Positions 44,601-62,300 of a stretch of DNA of 64,000 nt are shown one piece after another. Numbering within the stretch: the first letter of the stretch is position 1; every line of letters begins with the position of its first letter. Both the position numbers and the translations under genes were made by a program. The DNA comes from Candidatus Zhuqueibacterota bacterium (GTDB lineage Bacteria > Zhuqueibacterota > Zhuqueibacteria > Residuimicrobiales > Oceaniaggregativiventaceae), in NCBI GenBank assembly GCA_014728115.1, contig WJME01000336.1:13563-77562 (forward strand). The letters are read 5' to 3'. Below the pieces are notes generated by a model. It was given only the letters and a program-made list of their open reading frames with translations, searched no databases and was not told the origin of the DNA.

Positions 44601-45036
44601 CCGCGATACGGATCTGGACGGCTGGTCATCGCCTCCGGACGTGTTCGGGTTGGTGGCGTTGTTGGCACAATATACACAGTCAGCACCGGCAGATGACGGA
44701 TACGAGTTACGTCCCCGTTCCCGGGCGGATTTCATTCCGGTTACGGCAGTGCAAGGGGATCATGCAGAGCCGCTGGCTTTTCTTTTGATGCAAAATTATC
44801 CCAATCCGTTCAATCCACACACCGTAATCCGGTTTATGCTCCCCCAAAAAAGCCCGGTCGAACTGGCAGTCTTTGATCTCTTGGGCCGGCAGGTGCATAG
44901 GTGGTCGTCCCCTGGCTTGTCTGCGGGTGCTCACGAGCTGATCTTTGATGCGACCGGGCTGAGCAGCGGCAGTTATTTTTATCGCTTGACAGCGGGTAAT
45001 TTTATACAGGTGCGCCGGATGGTGATCGTAAAATAG
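41623..45036 (+). CDS. Large secreted multidomain protein (Ig-like, beta-propeller-like, carboxypeptidase-regulatory-like, OB-like, PNPFN C-terminal domain)
   Basis: Signal peptide after aggaga RBS; TDEAGKFRI; QNYPNPFNP...LSSGSYFYRL. Confidence 0.75.
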   Translation: MKGLLTWLFGSILLSGVLAQSPENELLFSTQHLDYGSIPVRAKTLQFVAIKNPHEHNIRITGISTDHSAYQVSIDSSQILPPVPPPLGSPVTQADWLEQPLTLKPDQSILLTITFIPQTIGSAPGELIISTENDNYAIQITGYGYEMWTTRWQISAHETEWFDQQNSIRGMAFAAQKGHLYIAGRNAIHCLDAETGKRVKEIALPKEIKESIPGRIVVTRKGKLIIGNIAPQNDSFVLYTYAHEDSQAVKIFEGKLKGRNGDALAVHNNGNDLEIYVSGLDNELVHVLRQTKEDTFFLLHSVALPTAGAAGYSISPAMDAEHCFITGPDQPLRYIRNDGTVLKEIDDHTGTTCSFFSIEKKNGHTRQFVALATGTRPGTQIIECLGTPGDSLCSLVHAVGAPTFAFAQGDNPLGIAQVLYDSQYHQLLEMVSNVGVAAFDMKSIEPDAIIPSGSIAGAVWSNHSQEPLTARLYLEDSPFEAFTDEAGKFRIQQVPIGNHIIVCNARDHFLVRDTLQVMADTTIIKNFHLDIKTYPPVRLTVQTRATEAHLSWNLQRPDTLIAYHDDEPASGWFQKQNRAYGVIFDLQQVPGATIEQLDFCHYSWQTQQGPYDYRVHLFDWQDSTLITSFQQVAQDAYAEPKWEYAIDLGSREWVPLLGVFIEPLSGTPDDAHPALSTDNSVPAVRGTSMLVMDIENPFDSVIDAVDQNPGMGDFLMDLWIDVPDQHQKAIKQPAPAMAFVASAARGETSERGLLSRDMQIVKMPHMQTERLTGFQLFRGINQERLERLAEVPADEQRFIDHSPVADTTLVYGISAIYDIGQSDTVVTPYHHPPLLPIGEARKDSDLDFVPDFLGNIVTVHGTITSPNFSPSRSNFFLQDSTAGINLFSEHHDLTASYELAAGDQVYITGQIAQVRGLTQMLLSDAAHFTLVSRGNPLPDTVQTSLSVLGESLESQLLYIPELRLVKPEAWPPEGQNGSLWVTDGQDTTILFIDRDTDLDGWSSPPDVFGLVALLAQYTQSAPADDGYELRPRSRADFIPVTAVQGDHAEPLAFLLMQNYPNPFNPHTVIRFMLPQKSPVELAVFDLLGRQVHRWSSPGLSAGAHELIFDATGLSSGSYFYRLTAGNFIQVRRMVIVK

Positions 45037-45108
45037 GCCCGGATACATTCTTATTTTGAAATGAGCAATGAACTTGTAAAAACACGCAACCAGAGAATAT
45101 GAAAATGA

Positions 45109-45196
45109 CGATCCTGGGGTCGGACCTCAGCCATCGCTAAAAAACAACAATTTAGATGATGCAATAGGCCGTTTGAACCGGTTTAATAGGCTGTTT
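45109..45196 (+). repeat. 88-bp direct repeat, copy A (left-end fragment of the MITE-like element)
   Basis: 78/88 identical by manual alignment to 49758-49845; starts cgatcctggggtcggacctcagc. Confidence 0.9.
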
Positions 45197-45469
45197 ACCC
45201 GCTCTTCTTTCGTTTCAAGGCAGCGTAATTCAAATCATTCACGACGCGATGGATCCCGGTTTACCTCTTACAAATGTTTTCCTTGCATTAAAGACATAAA
45301 TTCTTTAATAATCTTATCACGCCCCAAACGCAATAATAATCATATGGACGAGCTCAATGATTGCGATCACTAAAAACTCGCATTCATTTGTGTTCATTCG
45401 GGTTTATTCGTGGTAAAAATTGAACCGTAAATAAACTAAACCATCCCTTGACCAAACCCACTGAGAAAA

Positions 45470-46051
45470 ATGAAAGCTCGCATACAAAAACAAATCGAAT
45501 TCATCCTGGAAATCGACAAGCTCAAACACATTTTGCGTCAATCCTATCTGTTACAAAATCTCCGGCGGGAAAACTCTGCCGAGCACAGCTGGCAGTTGGC
45601 ACTTATGGCCATGGTGCTCGCCGAATATAGCGATGAATCCATCGACCTGCTGCATGTGATCCGCATGGCGCTGGTGCATGATATCGTAGAGATCGATGCC
45701 GGGGATACCTACTGTTACGGCGATCAATCGGATAAATCCCAAAAGGAACAAGCAGCAGCCGAACGGTTATATGGTCTTTTGCCGGACGACCAGGCAAAAG
45801 AACTGCATGCGCTCTGGATGGAATTCGAGACCCGTGAAACCCCGGAAGCCCGCTTTGCCGCTGCCCTGGACCGGCTCATGCCGCTGTTGCTCAATTACCA
45901 CACCCAGGGCCAATCCTGGCTCGAACACGGCGTGCGCAAGGACCAGGTGCTGGAACGGAACTGCCACATCGCCGAAGGATCTAAAGAGTTATGGGACTAT
46001 GCGGAAACGCTGATTCAAGATGCCGTAAAGAAGGGATTTTTGCTTGAATAG
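45470..46051 (+). CDS. HD-domain hydrolase (YfbR/HDDC2-like 5'-deoxynucleotidase family)
   Basis: ENSAEHSW, LVHDIVEIDAGD, EARFAAALDR. Confidence 0.9.
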   Translation: MKARIQKQIEFILEIDKLKHILRQSYLLQNLRRENSAEHSWQLALMAMVLAEYSDESIDLLHVIRMALVHDIVEIDAGDTYCYGDQSDKSQKEQAAAERLYGLLPDDQAKELHALWMEFETRETPEARFAAALDRLMPLLLNYHTQGQSWLEHGVRKDQVLERNCHIAEGSKELWDYAETLIQDAVKKGFLLE

Positions 46052-46070
46052 GCAAAAGAGCAAAACTCGA

Positions 46071-47130
46071 TAATCATGATCATTTAGGACCGCTACGGCT
46101 CTGCCACCTCGGCAGTCCTCTACAATACCTGCTGGTTATTTTAAGTTACTTTTATTTCTTATTTCAGCCACATTGTTCAGCGCCGCGGTGCCAGGATCCT
46201 GCGCGGACTCGGCAACATTTTCCTTTTCAGAGCCTTGGTTCTTTGATGTTCTGTAATCGTGATCATTGGGGACCGCTTCGGCTCTGGCCCCGCGGCCGTC
46301 CTATACATTTCCTGCTGGTTATTTTAGTTTACTTTTATTTCTTATTTCGGCCACATTGTTCAGCGCCGCGGTGCCAGGATCCTGCGCGGGCTCGGACGCG
46401 CTTCCCCCTGGACCATGCAGAGATCCTTTTAAGCTCAGTAAAAATTTGTGCGCCTGGGTTATGATCTTGACATTCCCTAATGCATGGCCCAGGGGGCGAT
46501 CGCGCCTCGCTATCATTTAGGAAAAAGCTCTATAAATAATGGTTCGGATGAATTGGATTTTCCCTATTGTTACCATTTTATCTCTCCCCTTTTTGTTTTT
46601 TATCACTTGATCTCTGACATTGGATATCTGATCGCCTCTAGCGAGCTTTGTCTTTGAGTAATTCTGCTCTATCCAGAAATCTGAAACCATATATTTAATA
46701 TAGTGTATCGGTTGTAGAGCTTTTTCCCCACATTCAGCGAGGGGCGATCGCCCCCGGAGCCATGCATAGACAAGCTCAAAAGGCAAGAGGGAGATATAAA
46801 GTCCGCTGAAACAAAAGGGTATCCTGCATGGCGCAGGGGGAAGCGCCACGAGCCCGCGTAGGATCCTGGACCCGCGGCTCCTGAAGAGTATGACAAGAAA
46901 AAGAAATAAAACCAAACCAAAATGGTCATCAGGAAACAATAAAGAATAGCCGCGGAGACAGAGCCGGAGCGGTCCCCAAATATCAAAGTCTGGACCTAAA
47001 AAAACACTCGACTAAAGAATAGGACTATCGACGAATCTGCAAAGGATCCTGGCACCGCCACAACTATAACTGAAAAGCAGGGGCTAAAACAGACAATTAC
47101 AGGCAACACAACCCAAATAGCACCACCGGG
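46071..47130. repeat. Non-coding symmetric array: two direct copies (183-bp period) followed by two inverted copies of a structured unit
   Basis: 46071-46212 matches 46254-46395; 46266-46532 is an imperfect reverse complement of 46715-46979; 46185-46200 is the exact reverse complement of 47043-47058. The right boundary is approximate. Confidence 0.85.
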
Positions 47131-47243
47131 ATTGCTGCATACAGTAAAGTTGTTTAGTAGAGTAAACAGCGAAATGAACAAACCCTCTACCTGGCATTCA
47201 ATAAGAAGTATGATAAAAATTGTCAACGTTGGGAGACAGTATC

Positions 47244-47801
47244 ATGAAATTTTTAGCCAGCGTTTTGGTGACAATTCTGGGTTTTGCCGTGGCAGCGTTA
47301 ATTGTCATGTATAGCGGCGCTGTCAGTGTCAGCGTGCTGGATAAACCTTCCGCATTTCAATCCTGGATTCTTTCCACAACCATGGAAAATTCGGTCAACT
47401 CTCGTGCCGGGGATATCACAGTACCAGACCTGGAAAAAGAAGTGATGATAGAAACCGGCGCTACACATTATGTGACCATGTGCCAAACATGTCACGGGGC
47501 ACCTGGCGTAAATTTATCTGCAATGGCAAGGGGCCTGGAACCCATCCCCCCTTTGCTATATCACAAAGAGGAAGCCGAAGAATGGAGCGCTGCAGAAAAA
47601 TTCTGGATTACCAAAAACGGAATCATGATGACTGGTATGCCATCATGGGGCGTTACCCATTCGGATGAGGAGATATGGGCGATTGTGGCTTTCTTACAAA
47701 AGTTGCCCGGGTTGTCAGAAGCAAAGTACAAAACAATGACGCAGAGCACAAAAACTGAATCTGGCCATTCGCATGCTGACGGCGATGGACATAGTCATTG
47801 A
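47244..47801 (+). CDS. Membrane-anchored monoheme cytochrome c with His-rich tail
   Basis: CQTCH, GIMMTGMPSWG, C-terminal GHSHADGDGHSH. Confidence 0.88.
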   Translation: MKFLASVLVTILGFAVAALIVMYSGAVSVSVLDKPSAFQSWILSTTMENSVNSRAGDITVPDLEKEVMIETGATHYVTMCQTCHGAPGVNLSAMARGLEPIPPLLYHKEEAEEWSAAEKFWITKNGIMMTGMPSWGVTHSDEEIWAIVAFLQKLPGLSEAKYKTMTQSTKTESGHSHADGDGHSH

Positions 47802-47842
47802 TGATTTGTATATCAACCGGCAAAGAAATAACCAAAGGAGGT

Positions 47843-48166
47843 ATGAATATCATGCGAACCTTGATAATTTTCACAGCACTTTTAATTTTACCTTTCGTCT
47901 CCGCCTGTAACAATGATACCGATCACATGGATGACCACATGGGAGACATGCATAACAATTCTTCCCAATACATGATGGACATGAATTCCATGATGAATAA
48001 TCAGAATTTGATAAACAATCCAGACACCAGGAATCAACTGGAGCAAATGCAAAACCATATGAGCGTACTGATGCAAAATTATGAGAATATGCTGCAAAGC
48101 ATGAATGAGGTGCAGGAAAACGCCCGGGAAGATAGTCATAATATGCACCACCGTGAAACGTTTTGA
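47843..48166 (+). CDS. Small Met/His/Asn-rich lipoprotein, possible metal-binding
   Basis: ggaggt RBS, lipobox [15 protein letters not shown]. Confidence 0.65.
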
Positions 48167-59338: not shown

Positions 59339-62300
59339 GTGAAAATTAAAAGTATGCTTGTAATTCTTGTTGTTTTTTTTATTTGTTTCGCACCTCTGCA
59401 TAGCGCACGATCACAAAAACCGTCGGATGTAAACCTTGAAAAATTGGATGGCCGTTTCCGACAGTTGCTGCAAAAAGCAAAGGGCTGGGATATTCGAGGA
59501 CTGGCCCCCATGGATAAACAGTTGAAAAAAGTCAAAGATGGCAAAGAGGTCTATGGAGCGATTATCTATGCTCAGGATATTAAAGCGTTGCGCAGGGGAG
59601 GGATCGATGTGCAAAGCGAACAACAAACCTTTGCCACAGCTCTGGTCGATGACAATGACCTCATAAAACTGGCCCGTATGGATGGGGTGACCTGGGTCGA
59701 TGCCGGCGCCCTCGATACCTTGCACAATGATGTCGCCCGGATCGCTTCGGGCGTGGATCTCGCCAATAACGGATTTTTTAATAACACCGAATACAAGGGT
59801 CAGGATGTGCTGATCTGCATCGTGGATACCGGAATCGACTGGGAGCATCTGGACTTTCGTGATCCCACGGATCCCACACAGTCGAGAATTCTGGCTATCT
59901 GGGATCAGACCATTTCGCCCCAGGGAAGTGAAAGCAACCCAGCTGATTTTACCTACGGCGTCGAGTATACGCAAGCCCAGATCAATGATGAGCTGGATGG
60001 CTCACCCGCCGGATTCGTGCGCAGCCAGGATACCCACGGTCATGGAACCCACGTCGCAGGTACGGCAGCAGGCAATGGCGCCGCCTCGGTCGACGGTTCA
60101 AAATTCGCCGGAATGGCGCCAAAAGCAGACATCCTGGTGGTCAAGGCGGGCAATGGCAGTTTTCCCACAACGAATATTATCGATGCATTGACCTGGGCAG
60201 ACGATAAAGCCGACGATCTGGGAATGCCACTGATCGTCAATATGAGCCTGGGAAGCAATTCAGGGCCTCACGATGGCACCGATTCCAAAAGCCAGGCTAT
60301 CGATGATTTAGTTCAGCCGGGACGTTGTGTGGTCGTATCTGCAGGAAATGACGGTGACGATAATATCCATGTGAGTGATCAGATCAACGGCAGTCAATAC
60401 GATGACATTACGGTCTCTGTTCCCTCATATACGGCAATGGCAGGAAGCAATAATGATATTCTTATCATGGAATTCTGGTTTGATAGCAATCTGGATATCA
60501 GTGCAACAGTGACCTCACCCAATGGCTATTCGCTAACGGTTGGGCCCGGAAATCAAAATGACTCGAATACTGCCGATGGCACAATTTATATCAGCAATTA
60601 TACTTTTAGTGGCAATTTGGATCGATATATCTATGTAAAACTCTATGATCAGATCCAGACAACTCCTCCGCAAACGGGGTCCTGGACCGTCCGCCTTACC
60701 AACCAAACGACCACAACAGCAACCACTTTTCATGGCTGGTTCGCGGATCGCACTATCGGTAATCCCCTTACCCAGGCGTCCCTATCAGGGGCAGACGCTG
60801 CCTATACGCTCGGCAACACTGCCACAGAAGCCATTATCGTAGGTTCGTATGTTTCGCGATGGCGATGGCTTGCCAGCAATGGCTTACACTATTCCGGGGG
60901 TGGAACAGATATTTCTGATGACATTTCGCTCTTTAGCAGTTTTGGTCCGACACGGTATGGCATCCAGGATAAACCCGATATAGCCGCACCTGGTCAGGCT
61001 ATCGTCAGTAGCCGGTCTGCAGACACCAGTCCCAGCCCCGGTTCCCTTGTGGCAAACGATCAACATCTAAAAAGCCAGGGAACCAGTATGGCTGCGCCAG
61101 TGGTGGCCGGAGCCATGGCCCTGCTGCATGAAATCAATCCGACTGTAGATCCTTCCACCCTTTTATCTATTGTAAATCAAAATGCCATCAAAGACAATTA
61201 TACCGGAGCGGTTTGGGGTGAGCAATGGGGAAACGGCAAACTGAATATTGTCGAATGTATCAATGACCTGATCAATCCTCAAAAAAGTATAGCGAGTGAA
61301 ACACTTGTCTATGATGAATGGGGAAGTAACTTTTCTTATATCACACTGCCCACAAGTGATAAACTTGCATTAAAAATCAATCCCACGCTCAGCGGCTTTC
61401 TCTCGGGTATTTGGCTTCATATGGGATGGGACGAAGTGACATCTGACATCAGGATCACTGCGTACAATGAGGCTGCTGGCAAACCTGCTAATCCCATCGG
61501 AGAATCAGTAACGATACCGGCGAGTGGCTTGCTGGCCTATAGCTGGAATTTAGTGAACCTGGCAAACAGCCATGTGGCATTGAAACAAGACTCTACTTAT
61601 TTCGTTGCTGTAGAACCGATCTCAGCCAGCACTTCATTTGGACTCGAGACAGGGACAAGCGATACCCGAACGTCTTATTTTAATGGGTCGGACTGGTACC
61701 TGCAGTCCTGGAACCTGCGTCTCCGGCCGGTTATTGCGCGCGATGGCATCTTGCTGGTGGCCAAACTATTCTTACAAGGCGGATATAATGATGCCAGCGG
61801 TACCATGAATATCAATATCAACACAGATCTTCCCCTGACCTCACCCTATGCTGAGGACCCGAGAACTTTGGCGACTATGCCCCCCGGCATTGTCGATTGG
61901 GTTTTGATCCAGTTGACCGATCCGGCAACGAACAGTGTGGTCGCTTCTCATAGTGCATTGCTGCACAGCAGCGGCTGTATCGTCGCAGACGATGGGGCGA
62001 CCGGCGTGGTCTTTCTCGATGTCGTGCCCGATGACTATCGCATCCTGCTCAAACATCGCAACCATGTGGTCATTGCATCAGCCTCCACTCCAACAATGAA
62101 TGGGTCGAATGACACACTGTTTGATTTTACAGATTCGGCCAATCTCTATGATCAAAACGGAGCCGTCGAGCTGCAAACAAATATATGGGGACTGTGGTGC
62201 GGGGATAGCGACGGATCTGATTTGGTCAACAGTACCGACTATACCGTCTGGTACAATGCCGTGCGAGCCTCGGCCTCGGGGTATGAAGCCGCAGATATCA

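What the first reader, a model, noticed from the sequence alone, without database searches (positions are those of the whole stretch)
46071..47130. ~1-kb non-coding symmetric array (two forward, two inverted units; 183-bp period; centre near 46622)
Seen: unit 1 (46071) and unit 2 (46254) are direct repeats. 46266-46532 is mirrored by 46715-46979, and a degenerate fourth copy keeps an exact 16-mer at 47043-47058. The four CCAGGATCCT boxes are placed symmetrically: 46200+47043 = 46383+46860 = 93243. GC-rich blocks are conserved between arms, while the AT-rich linkers have diverged in sequence yet kept nearly the same length, and the ~180-bp core is not palindromic. Inference: selection on blocks and spacing rather than a recent inversion, as expected for paired structured RNAs/ssDNA hairpins or a phased recombination, transfer or replication site. 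I do not recognise it as any described element.
Basis: partly seen in the sequence, partly recalled or inferred. Interest (0 to 1): 0.75.

Follow-up and report, generated by a model that had tools for sequence, protein, structure and literature searches.

The report
Cluster of dispersed two-hairpin repeat elements
The 1-kb symmetric array is a local pile-up (two forward, two inverted copies) of a roughly 290-base, two-hairpin non-coding repeat that occurs about 25 times in this genome and in all its close relatives, a new family of the well-known class of palindromic intergenic repeats whose mobiliser and function are still unknown.

Summary
The array is not a unique site. It is 3.5 copies of a dispersed intergenic repeat, here called EL, about 290 nt long. 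EL has the order box1 CCGCTCCGGCTC, helix H1, box2 GGATCCTGCGCGG, helix H2, box3 GATCGCGCCTCGC, tail. nhmmer gives 35 hits on 19 contigs of the own genome, 18 of them full length. The left arm and the reverse-complemented right arm are colinear over about 465 nt, so a [truncated EL + EL] dimer was duplicated in inverted orientation en bloc. A covariance model of hairpin I finds 3-30 copies in 7 of 7 genomes of the same family, in 1 of 1 of a second family and weakly in 1 of 14 of a third. It finds none in 0 of 19 and 0 of 1 genomes of two others. Helix sequences differ between lineages and copies but stay paired (90.6% of cells against 32-45% when slid; 17 of 26 pairs changed on both sides), while the boxes stay fixed. 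There is no Rfam match, and no link to RAYT, TnpB, IS110 or integron attC. Mismatches show no RNA-strand bias. Best reading (0.5): a new family of mosaic hairpin repeats like REP/BIME or BOX elements. A structured small RNA is not excluded (0.27).

The parts
45470..46051 (+). Left flanking gene, HD-domain phosphohydrolase (not part of the element). Its stop codon lies 20 nt before the array.
   Evidence: Pfam HD_3, E 1e-54; ORF list
46071..46253 (+). EL copy 1, truncated: box1 variant CCGCTACGGCTC at 46090-46101, helix H1, box2 at 46194-46206. It breaks off about 45 nt later and hairpin II is missing.
   Evidence: nhmmer model positions 3-151 (contig 59641-59776 = window 46079-46214); CM hit 46086-46206, 74.4 bits, E 3e-14; direct repeat D1
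46254..46545 (+). EL copy 2, full length: box1 46273-46284, hairpin I 46269-46389, box2 46377-46389, hairpin II 46390-46510 with box3 at 46498-46510, tail ending near 46535-46545.
   Evidence: nhmmer positions 3-300; CM hit 46269-46389, 79.7 bits; coordinates; sequence
46536..46711 (.). AT-rich unique core between the 3' ends of the two convergent full copies. It is not palindromic and has no other copy in the genome.
   Evidence: blastn of the core against the genome finds only itself; GC 0.36
46704..46985 (-). EL copy 3, full length, inverted: hairpin I 46854-46976, box2 46854-46866, hairpin II 46735-46866.
   Evidence: nhmmer positions 3-303 on the minus strand (contig 60266-60545); CM hit 46854-46976, 86.8 bits, E 4.9e-17; inverted pairs I1-I4 and I8
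46986..47130 (-). Decayed fourth unit, the mirror image of truncated copy 1. Only the box2 region 47031-47058 is still recognisable.
   Evidence: D2 direct repeat with spacing 183 and I6/I7 inverted pairs; colinear arm alignment
47220..47801 (+). Right flanking gene, c-type cytochrome (not part of the element).
   Evidence: Pfam Cytochrome_CBB3, E 1.3e-15

Best explanation
The array is a local cluster of copies of a previously undescribed family of mosaic, hairpin-forming intergenic DNA repeats. They work like REP/BIME, REPIN or BOX elements.

Each full unit (about 290 nt here, about 200 nt in some relatives) is itself a tandem dimer of an ancestral 'GCTCCG box + long hairpin' module. Three short boxes are invariant. 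The two long imperfect helices between them change sequence freely but stay paired, and their distal parts are variable.

Inferred mechanism: the boxes and the folded stem bases are recognised in trans by a still unidentified protein of this lineage, most plausibly acting on single-stranded, folded DNA during replication or transfer. Copies spread, are exchanged and are homogenised by that activity together with ordinary homologous recombination between copies.

At this locus a tandem [truncated unit + full unit] arose and was then duplicated in inverted orientation around a 176-nt spacer. The outer right unit has since decayed. The boxes and stems of the other copies match the family consensus, through selection or through conversion by other copies.

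Shown: the repeat family, its architecture, the covariation, the taxonomic range, the mosaic structure, the en-bloc inverted duplication, and the lack of a known partner. Inferred: action at the DNA level, the existence of a trans-acting protein, and mobility.
For: Multi-copy and dispersed: nhmmer gives 35 hits on 19 contigs, 18 full length. The boxes are over-represented: box1 65 found against 17 expected, box2 31 against 4.8, box3 27 against 4.9.

Several contigs start or end inside a copy, and box depth in other metagenome assemblies is 10-17 times the flank depth.

Copy number varies from 3 to 30 among the ten genomes with matches.

In the well-assembled relative G002 the copies lie mostly alone between ordinary genes such as Band 7, peptidase C69, beta-galactosidase and a histidine kinase.

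Orientation relative to neighbouring genes is mixed.

Mosaic and decaying forms occur. Some copies are truncated. Some have deletions between the internal direct repeats: 2 copies in G000 and 1 in G002. A second box1-led module of about 140 nt precedes 6 of the 18 full copies and also occurs alone. In G002 another palindromic repeat is attached to 5 of the copies examined.

Structure is preserved. Over the first 14 positions of H1, 75% of cells form Watson-Crick pairs in register, against 24-36% when shifted, in 36 elements. In the CM alignment of 57 sequences 90.6% of cells pair against 32-45% when slid, 17 of 26 pairs have changes on both sides, and 0 of 500 shuffles reach the observed values. 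That alignment is fitted to the model.

There is no RNA-type strand bias among helix mismatches: G.T 19 (plus one invariant T.G pair), A.C 39, transversions 79.

Copies and adjacent accessory cassettes are shared between genera at 80-90% nucleotide identity, whereas the other flanking ORFs compared between these genomes are 34-50% identical in protein.

The left and right arms are colinear through both units.
Against: No mobilising enzyme was found. The Y1 transposase genes of this genome are flanked by other, small REP-like hairpins. The one Y1 gene near a copy is not linked to copies in other genomes. There is no TnpB. IS110-type DEDD domains lie on two unrelated contigs.

I could define no terminal inverted repeats or target-site duplication, and no clean filled-versus-empty orthologous site was found, so mobility is inferred and not shown.

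The three boxes are invariant across at least two families, and an AATTTT-type T-rich tract follows hairpin II in all lineages examined. Both would also fit a transcribed RNA with an intrinsic terminator.

The invariance of box1 and box2 in the loci found by pattern scan is circular, because the pattern required them. They are, however, also kept in BLAST- and CM-found copies.
Confidence: 0.5

Rival explanations
1. A family of structured small RNA genes, or cis-acting RNA elements. Each unit would be transcribed from the strand I call '+', starting near box1 and ending at hairpin II plus its U-rich tract. This would give a two-hairpin RNA of about 200-290 nt whose invariant boxes bind a protein or a target. 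The window would then hold tandem and convergent paralogues.
For: Covariation-supported helices combined with invariant internal-loop or box sequences are typical of functional RNAs. The boxes are deeply conserved across families. A T-rich tract (AATTTT, ATTT) directly follows the GC-rich base of hairpin II in G000, G002, G005, G007 and G010 copies. The only terminator-like site in the region lies there, at 46493-46508 plus tail. The '+' strand folds more stably than the '-' strand as RNA, summed over 22 copies: -2215 against -2067 kcal/mol. A T-rich stretch, often with TTTG, precedes box1.
Against: No Rfam family matches. No promoter consensus is shared between lineages, and the sigma-70 scan finds no more sites than in shuffles. 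I did not scan formally for the Bacteroidota-type promoter. Helix mismatches are not biased towards G.U on either strand: 19 G.T against 39 A.C. The fold energy of the window copy is ordinary for its composition, z -0.9 to -1.9. The greater stability of the '+' strand can follow simply from its G+T richness. Many copies are truncated or internally deleted. Up to 30 copies per genome is high for an sRNA.
Confidence: 0.27
2. Structure-specific recombination sites that punctuate exchangeable gene cassettes. This would be an integron-like system using folded sites unrelated to attC and an unknown recombinase.
For: In the fragmented parts of G000 the copies cluster 0.4-4 kb apart, mostly in one orientation, with small accessory cassettes between them. 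Examples are MNT-HepT on C41, DUF6883-DUF4926 on C161, a NucS/Shedu-like gene on C18 with type I restriction-modification and PIN genes adjacent, and RHS and PIN genes next to the pair of copies on C316. AbiE, NACHT and type III CRISPR-Cas genes lie beside copies at contig ends. The block EL - MNT - HepT - module Y recurs in another genus at 85% nucleotide identity in a different outer context. Conserved base boxes with a conserved T.C mismatch and a variable distal part resemble attC logic.
Against: In G002 copies are mostly solitary between housekeeping-type genes. Orientation relative to the cassette genes is not constant: it is opposite on C41 and C161. Breakpoints of truncated or hybrid copies are scattered, with no single crossover point. 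No recombinase is consistently adjacent. The genome's own integron remnant carries classical attC-like sites with RYYYAAC/GTTRRRY cores, which EL lacks. The clustering may simply reflect accumulation of repeats in variable islands.
Confidence: 0.1
3. A locus-specific functional site made of phased repeats: a replication or transfer origin, or an invertible switch flanked by the inverted arms.
For: Long inverted arms flank a 176-nt AT-rich unique core. One contig of run X5 shows a joint between opposite strands, 46359 to 46942.
Against: The arms are ordinary members of a genome-wide family. Contigs from three runs carry the core in the same orientation as the window. The single opposite-strand joint is asymmetric about the centre and can come from another copy. 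I saw no iterons, DnaA boxes or relaxase or recombinase genes next to the array in the parts I annotated.
Confidence: 0.03
4. An assembly artefact: a chimeric palindrome made by the assembler at a repeat.
For: The window comes from a metagenome-assembled genome with 338 contigs and 5.16% contamination. Repeats of this family break contigs elsewhere.
Against: Independent assemblies of other runs bridge the 3' box of copy 2, the core and the inverted copy colinearly. Other contigs cover 45605-46418 piecewise with few differences. The two arms differ by about 25-30%, so they are not a collapsed or mirrored read artefact.
Confidence: 0.02

Closest known systems
REP / BIME elements and REPINs of Proteobacteria (mobilised by RAYT Y1 transposases)
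   Same: Both are multi-copy, intergenic and non-coding. Both form imperfect hairpins whose pairing is preserved. Both occur singly, as inverted pairs and as mosaic clusters with other short modules, and both persist within a lineage. This background comes from passages of PMC3733652 and from recall for REPINs.
   Different: EL is about ten times longer (200-290 nt against 20-40 nt). It has two long helices with variable distal parts and three invariant boxes. Apart from a GTAG in the lineage-specific tail, read on the opposite strand, I saw no GTAG or CGTC tag at its ends. It is not found flanking any Y1 gene: the Y1 genes of this genome carry their own small REP-like hairpins.
BOX elements of Streptococcus pneumoniae, and ERIC and Correia-type repeats
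   Same: Both are modular (sub-elements combined in different numbers), 100-300 nt long and intergenic. Both are predicted to fold stably, have no known transposase of their own, and can be co-transcribed with neighbours. This is recalled and was not tested here.
   Different: There is no sequence relationship and the phylum is different. EL shows deep conservation of its boxes with helix covariation across families. I did not compare this with those elements.
Integron attC sites
   Same: Both are recognised by structure rather than by sequence: conserved base, conserved mismatch, and a variable terminal part of variable length. Both are found between small accessory cassettes, including toxin-antitoxin pairs.
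   Different: EL has no RYYYAAC/GTTRRRY cores and has two hairpins of 100-150 nt instead of one of 55-140 nt. It has no adjacent integron integrase, many copies are solitary, and orientation is mixed. The genome's own integron remnant has unrelated, classical attC-like sites.
Multi-copy structured sRNA families (for example tandem NsiR1 genes of Nostoc; recalled)
   Same: Both show tandem and dispersed paralogues of a hairpin-rich non-coding unit, and a T-rich tract follows the last hairpin.
   Different: No promoter is shared between lineages and there is no G.U bias. Many copies are truncated. No expression data are available (one search listed no RNA holder).

Membership tests
REP/REPIN-RAYT system | Short (20-40 nt) imperfect palindrome carrying a conserved terminal tetranucleotide (GTAG or CGTC) | tested here: not met
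   Units are 200-290 nt with two long helices. A GTAG is present only in the lineage-specific tail of G000-type copies, read on the opposite strand, and is not a general feature. The definition comes from passages of PMC3733652.
REP/REPIN-RAYT system | A RAYT (Y1 transposase) gene flanked by the repeats | tested here: not met
   There are 8 Y1_Tnp matches in the genome. A copy lies within 600 nt of only 1 of the 8 (C41, on one side only). Relatives of that gene in 10 other genomes show no copy in the 11 loci fetched from other genomes and from a second G000 site. Four of the 8 are flanked on one side by other multi-copy sequence containing small hairpins.
MITE (non-autonomous DDE-transposon derivative) | Terminal inverted repeats, target-site duplication, and a parent IS with the same ends | tested here: inconclusive
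   The ends are not inverted copies of each other, and the boundaries differ between subfamilies. I recognised no duplication. No longer element with EL ends was seen among the nhmmer and CM hits. Only 18 full copies were inspected by eye.
Integron attC site | Paired R''/R' cores (RYYYAAC ... GTTRRRY) closing a single 55-140-nt hairpin, in arrays beside an integron integrase | tested here: not met
   A crude core-pair scan found 0 sites on 10 contigs, 8 of them with EL copies (consensus recalled). EL stem bases are GC boxes. Integrase fragments lie on C143 and C224 without EL. The inter-ORF regions on C143 carry classical attC-like sites.
Any Rfam 15 RNA family | A covariance-model match | tested here: not met
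   With the E-value threshold, window 45000-48000 gave 1 match, outside the array, at E 0.35. Six further loci with divergent copies gave 1 chance miRNA match at E 0.09.
IS200/IS605 end, or TnpB omega-RNA (stand-alone right end) | Sequence shared with the ends of a resident IS200/IS605 element; tnpB or iscB present | tested here: not met
   PF07282 gave 0 matches in the own genome while 8 of 14 control genomes matched. The genome is 98% complete but fragmented.
Mosaic palindromic intergenic repeats in the broad sense (BIME- or BOX-like) | Multi-copy, intergenic, non-coding, hairpin-forming, built from sub-modules that recombine; present as single, tandem and inverted copies | tested here: met
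   This is a descriptive class, not a homology family.

The most novel reading that the evidence does not exclude
EL is not a selfish repeat but a new class of functional folded element. It would be a two-hairpin unit of about 200-290 nt whose three invariant GCTCCG-containing boxes are read by a lineage-specific protein, and it is conserved across at least two families of an uncultured marine-sediment Bacteroidota-like order. It would act either as a multi-copy structured RNA or as a folded single-strand recombination site that marks the borders of horizontally exchanged defence and toxin-antitoxin cassettes, in which case it would be an attC-independent cassette system.
Probability: 0.2. Interest if true: 0.7.

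Novelty: new variant of a known kind. Interest (0 to 1): 0.45.

Why it matters
If the reading holds, this adds a large and unusually elaborate member to the palindromic intergenic repeats, in a phylum-level group where such elements are hardly described. The family comes with a ready-made covariance model and dozens of copies across ten genomes. It also breaks assemblies of these uncultured sediment bacteria and sits at the edges of defence and toxin-antitoxin islands that are shared between genera. Knowing it therefore helps binning, annotation and the study of gene exchange in that community. The open question is which protein reads three invariant boxes flanked by freely covarying helices, and on DNA or on RNA. 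That question is directly testable, and its answer could reveal a new recombinase-site or RNA-protein pair.

Tried and rejected
**Expression.** No RNA holder was listed among the 6 runs found, so nothing can be said about transcription.

**Filled versus empty orthologous site.**
- The HD gene gave 0 of 5 relatives and the cytochrome gene only 26-30% identical hits.
- Two other loci had true orthologues in the same-genus genome G001 (91% and 88% protein identity). One contig ends inside the gene. At the other, synteny breaks about 20 nt upstream of the start codon. No clean comparison was possible.

**Known partners rejected.**
- RAYT/Y1.
- TnpB.
- IS110. The IS110-like ORF near copies on C21 has only the C-terminal domain.
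- Integron integrase and attC.
- CRISPR repeats. The arrays on C24 and C106 have an unrelated repeat; a copy merely lies after cas2 on C285.

**Rejected readings.**
- Cyanobacterial HIP1-type origin of the GCGATCGC core of box3: only 146 copies genome-wide at 46% GC.
- Coding: short ORFs only, no Pfam family, and the helices covary.

**Collections and scans.**
- Phage or viral origin: 0 matches in viral contigs.
- The pattern scans also returned 7 of 16 (genome contigs) and 11 of 22 (metagenome contigs) GC-rich chance matches, which I set aside after nhmmer and composition checks.
- Sigma-70 promoter and terminator scan: no excess over shuffles.
- Thermodynamic z-scores: not significant.
- A plain MAFFT plus RNAalifold run on full copies misaligned the swapped helices and was not used.

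**Earlier findings and literature.**
- Earlier findings of this scan gave nothing on this element.
- One full-text search (Bacteroidetes + MITE + intergenic + hairpin) listed 2 papers. I read passages of one, PMC3733652. I made no search that could show the element is absent from print.

Full report
**1. The observation**

- Units at 46071 and 46254 are direct repeats: 142 nt, 89% identical, 183 nt apart.
- Eight inverted pairs link 46182-46535 with 46712-47058.
- A second 183-nt spacing exists on the right side.
- The exact 16-mer at 47043-47058 and the two coordinate sums of 93243 can be read directly.
- A global alignment of the left half with the reverse complement of the right half is colinear through both units (325 of 504 columns identical). 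The outermost right unit is almost erased.
- The 176-nt core has no other copy in the genome.
- Only short ORFs overlap the region. The two I scanned have no Pfam family.
- Contigs assembled independently from three other public runs pass colinearly from the end of copy 2 through the core into the inverted copy. No single contig spans the whole kilobase.

**2. What it is**

The array is not a unique site.

- A BLAST of the region against the window's own genome (6.96 Mb, 338 contigs) gave 49 matches.
- A profile built from the copies found 35 hits on 19 contigs, 18 of them full length.
- The three conserved boxes are several-fold over-represented in the genome.

The full unit, which I call EL, is about 290 nt long and has this order:

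- box1, CCGCTCCGGCTC
- helix H1, with a distal part of about 70 nt
- box2, GGATCCTGCGCGG
- helix H2, made of an outer and an inner stem, with a distal part of 7-70 nt
- box3, GATCGCGCCTCGC
- a tail

In window coordinates:

| Unit | Coordinates | Strand | State |
|---|---|---|---|
| Copy 1 | 46071-46253 | + | truncated after box2 |
| Copy 2 | 46254-46545 | + | full |
| Copy 3 | 46704-46985 | - | full |
| Fourth unit | about 46986-47130 | - | decayed mirror of copy 1 |

The right side repeats the 183-nt offset of the left side, so a tandem [truncated EL + EL] was duplicated in inverted orientation as one block.

Box1, the 3' half of box2 plus the bases after it, and box3 all contain GCTCCG. The hairpin I model also hits hairpin II at lower scores. 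EL is therefore itself a dimer of an older 'box + hairpin' module. Deletions between these internal repeats occur in 2 copies in G000 and in 1 copy in G002.

**3. Relatives**

- The neighbouring genes carry type IX secretion sorting domains.
- In the scan of one genome per species, 16 loci matched the box1-gap-box2 pattern. Nine of them are true family members, all from three records titled 'uncultured Cytophagia bacterium'. The other seven are GC-rich chance matches.
- The metagenome scan gave 22 loci. Eleven have about 46% GC and the same architecture, with new helix sequences.
- The viral collection gave none.
- BLAST found the unit in 6 of 7 other genomes of the same family and in 0 of 33 genomes of four other families of the order.

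A covariance model of hairpin I (135 positions, 26 pairs) gave, over all 43 genomes of the order:

| Family | Genomes with a match |
|---|---|
| f1 (own family, G000 excluded) | 7 of 7 |
| f4 | 1 of 1 (14 matches) |
| f2 | 1 of 14 (weak) |
| f5 | 0 of 19 |
| f3 | 0 of 1 |

Genomes with matches hold 3-30 each.

**4. Structure**

The helices change sequence but remain paired.

- In 36 elements anchored on the boxes, the first 14 positions of H1 are 75% Watson-Crick in register, against 24-36% when the register is shifted. Positions 1-9 show two to four pair types each, and position 3 carries a recurrent T.C mismatch.
- At least a dozen different stem sequences are seen.
- In the model-fitted alignment of 57 sequences, 90.6% of cells pair, against 32-45% when partners are slid. 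Seventeen of 26 pairs have changes on both sides, and none of 500 shuffles reaches the observed values. The tool warns that a fitted alignment leans towards its structure and that relatedness inflates such counts.
- H2 shows the same behaviour by eye. Its inner stem has at least seven unrelated sequences in different lineages and subtypes. I did not test it statistically.
- The window copy folds no better than shuffles of itself, z -0.9 to -1.9. The evidence for structure is therefore comparative, not thermodynamic.

**5. DNA or RNA?**

- Excluding one invariant T.G pair, helix mismatches are 19 G.T, 39 A.C and 79 transversions. Neither strand shows the G.U-rich, A.C-poor pattern of a constrained RNA. 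The events are few and not independent.
- The '+' strand folds more stably as RNA over 22 copies, but it is the G+T-rich strand.
- A T-rich tract follows hairpin II and another precedes box1 in all lineages examined. The only terminator-like site in the region lies at the base of hairpin II.
- No promoter motif is shared between lineages, and no Rfam family matches.
- No RNA run was available.

I therefore rank a DNA-level repeat first and keep a structured RNA as a serious rival.

**6. Context**

In the fragmented parts of G000 the copies cluster 0.4-4 kb apart and lie among accessory genes:

- MNT-HepT
- DUF6883-DUF4926
- type I and type II restriction-modification genes
- PIN and RHS genes
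- AbiE
- a NACHT protein
- a type III CRISPR-Cas locus

The block EL - MNT - HepT - another repeated module recurs in a genome of another genus at 85% nucleotide identity. The other flanking ORFs compared between these genomes are 34-50% identical in protein. The copies therefore travel with a shared accessory gene pool.

In the best-assembled relative (G002, 60 contigs) the copies are mostly solitary. They lie between ordinary genes and in both orientations relative to them.

EL combines with other modules:

- a box1-led module of about 140 nt that precedes 6 of the 18 full copies and also occurs alone
- a third module
- heptamer or octamer tandem repeats
- in G002, a different palindromic repeat

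This mosaic behaviour is that of BIME- or BOX-type repeats.

**7. Known partners excluded**

- The eight Y1 transposase matches of the genome include four flanked on one side by other multi-copy sequence with small REP-like hairpins.
- The one Y1 gene 400 nt from a copy has relatives in ten other genomes without copies nearby.
- There is no TnpB.
- Only two IS110 catalytic domains exist, both elsewhere.
- The genome holds fragments of an integron integrase. The inter-ORF regions next to one fragment carry classical attC-like sites unrelated to EL. A crude attC scan of 10 contigs, 8 of them carrying EL, found none.

**8. Verdict**

It is, however, a local inverted duplication inside a genome-wide, lineage-wide repeat family. 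It is not a dedicated origin, transfer site or switch.

I file it as a new variant of the palindromic mosaic intergenic repeats (confidence 0.5). It works like REP/BIME or BOX elements but fails the membership tests for REP-RAYT, MITE, attC, IS200/IS605 ends and every Rfam family.

The main open alternatives are a multi-copy structured RNA (0.27) and a folded recombination site bordering exchangeable cassettes (0.10).

Interest is moderate. The family is elaborate, deeply conserved and undescribed as far as my one literature search and the Rfam scans can tell, but its kind is familiar and its function is not resolved here.

Noticed in passing
G000 contig C143:1-3306 (locus L102) and C224:60851-61407 (locus L101): This is an integron remnant. 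An N-terminal integron-integrase fragment lies on C143, divergent from four ORFs that include a Gp49/HTH pair. The inter-ORF regions hold classical attC-like sites (CTAAC ... GTTAG cores). C-terminal integrase fragments on C224 (137 bits to TIGR02249 positions 210-291) are interrupted by small palindromic inserts containing ACCTCCCGGAGGT.
   Followed up: partly
G000 C150:9683-10000, C220:9105-9612, C11:1-300, C162:12860-13405: Y1 (IS200/RAYT-like) transposase genes are flanked on one side by multi-copy sequence (10-15 other hits). On C150, C220 and C11 it contains small 20-25-nt GC-rich hairpins of classical REP type. This is a separate REP-like system in the same genome.
   Followed up: partly
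Flanks of EL copies, e.g. G000 C18 below 20527 and below 23364, C218 near 52490 and 53210, C253 near 75990, C316 near 5190, C285:6690-6740: Runs of 3-9 tandem heptamers or octamers (GCCGTCT / GACGTYT, TTGAACTG, GTTTAAnT, TGACCTC types) lie directly next to many copies. Their origin and any role are unexplained.
   Followed up: no
G000 C41:3480-3625, C161 (six places), C21:45450-45577 and others: A second repeat module of about 140 nt starts with a box1-like sequence and is followed by small hairpins. It precedes 6 of the 18 full EL copies and also occurs alone on contigs without EL (C5, C254, C270). A third module ('Y', about 165 nt) also recurs beside copies.
   Followed up: partly
G000 C41:1944-2661 and G006 C450 (locus L021:392-1061): An MNT-HepT toxin-antitoxin pair together with its neighbouring EL copy is shared between two genera at 85% nucleotide identity (77-90% protein), far above the other flanking ORFs compared (34-50%). 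This suggests recent exchange of the cassette.
   Followed up: partly
G000 C285:1-6771 (locus L109): This is a type III-like CRISPR-Cas adaptation and effector neighbourhood. It holds Cas6, two Card1-type CARF nucleases, and a 959-aa fusion of reverse transcriptase with a TOTE-type archaeo-eukaryotic primase domain directly upstream of Cas1-Cas2. The contig ends in heptamer repeats and the start of an EL copy where the CRISPR array would be expected.
   Followed up: no
G002 loci L166, L167, L170, L172 (downstream of EL): In this relative, 5 of the EL copies examined are followed by one or two copies of another palindromic repeat (CATCCCACGGGGCTTGCCCCCGTGGGATG type). This is a lineage-specific mosaic partner.
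   Followed up: no
G000 C21:51771-53060: An IS110-like ORF has only the C-terminal Transposase_20 domain. Its apparent N-terminal 200 codons contain copies of the box1-led module, and sequence upstream of it recurs next to an EL copy in G006. An IS110 element may have inserted into, or been broken by, the repeat array.
   Followed up: no
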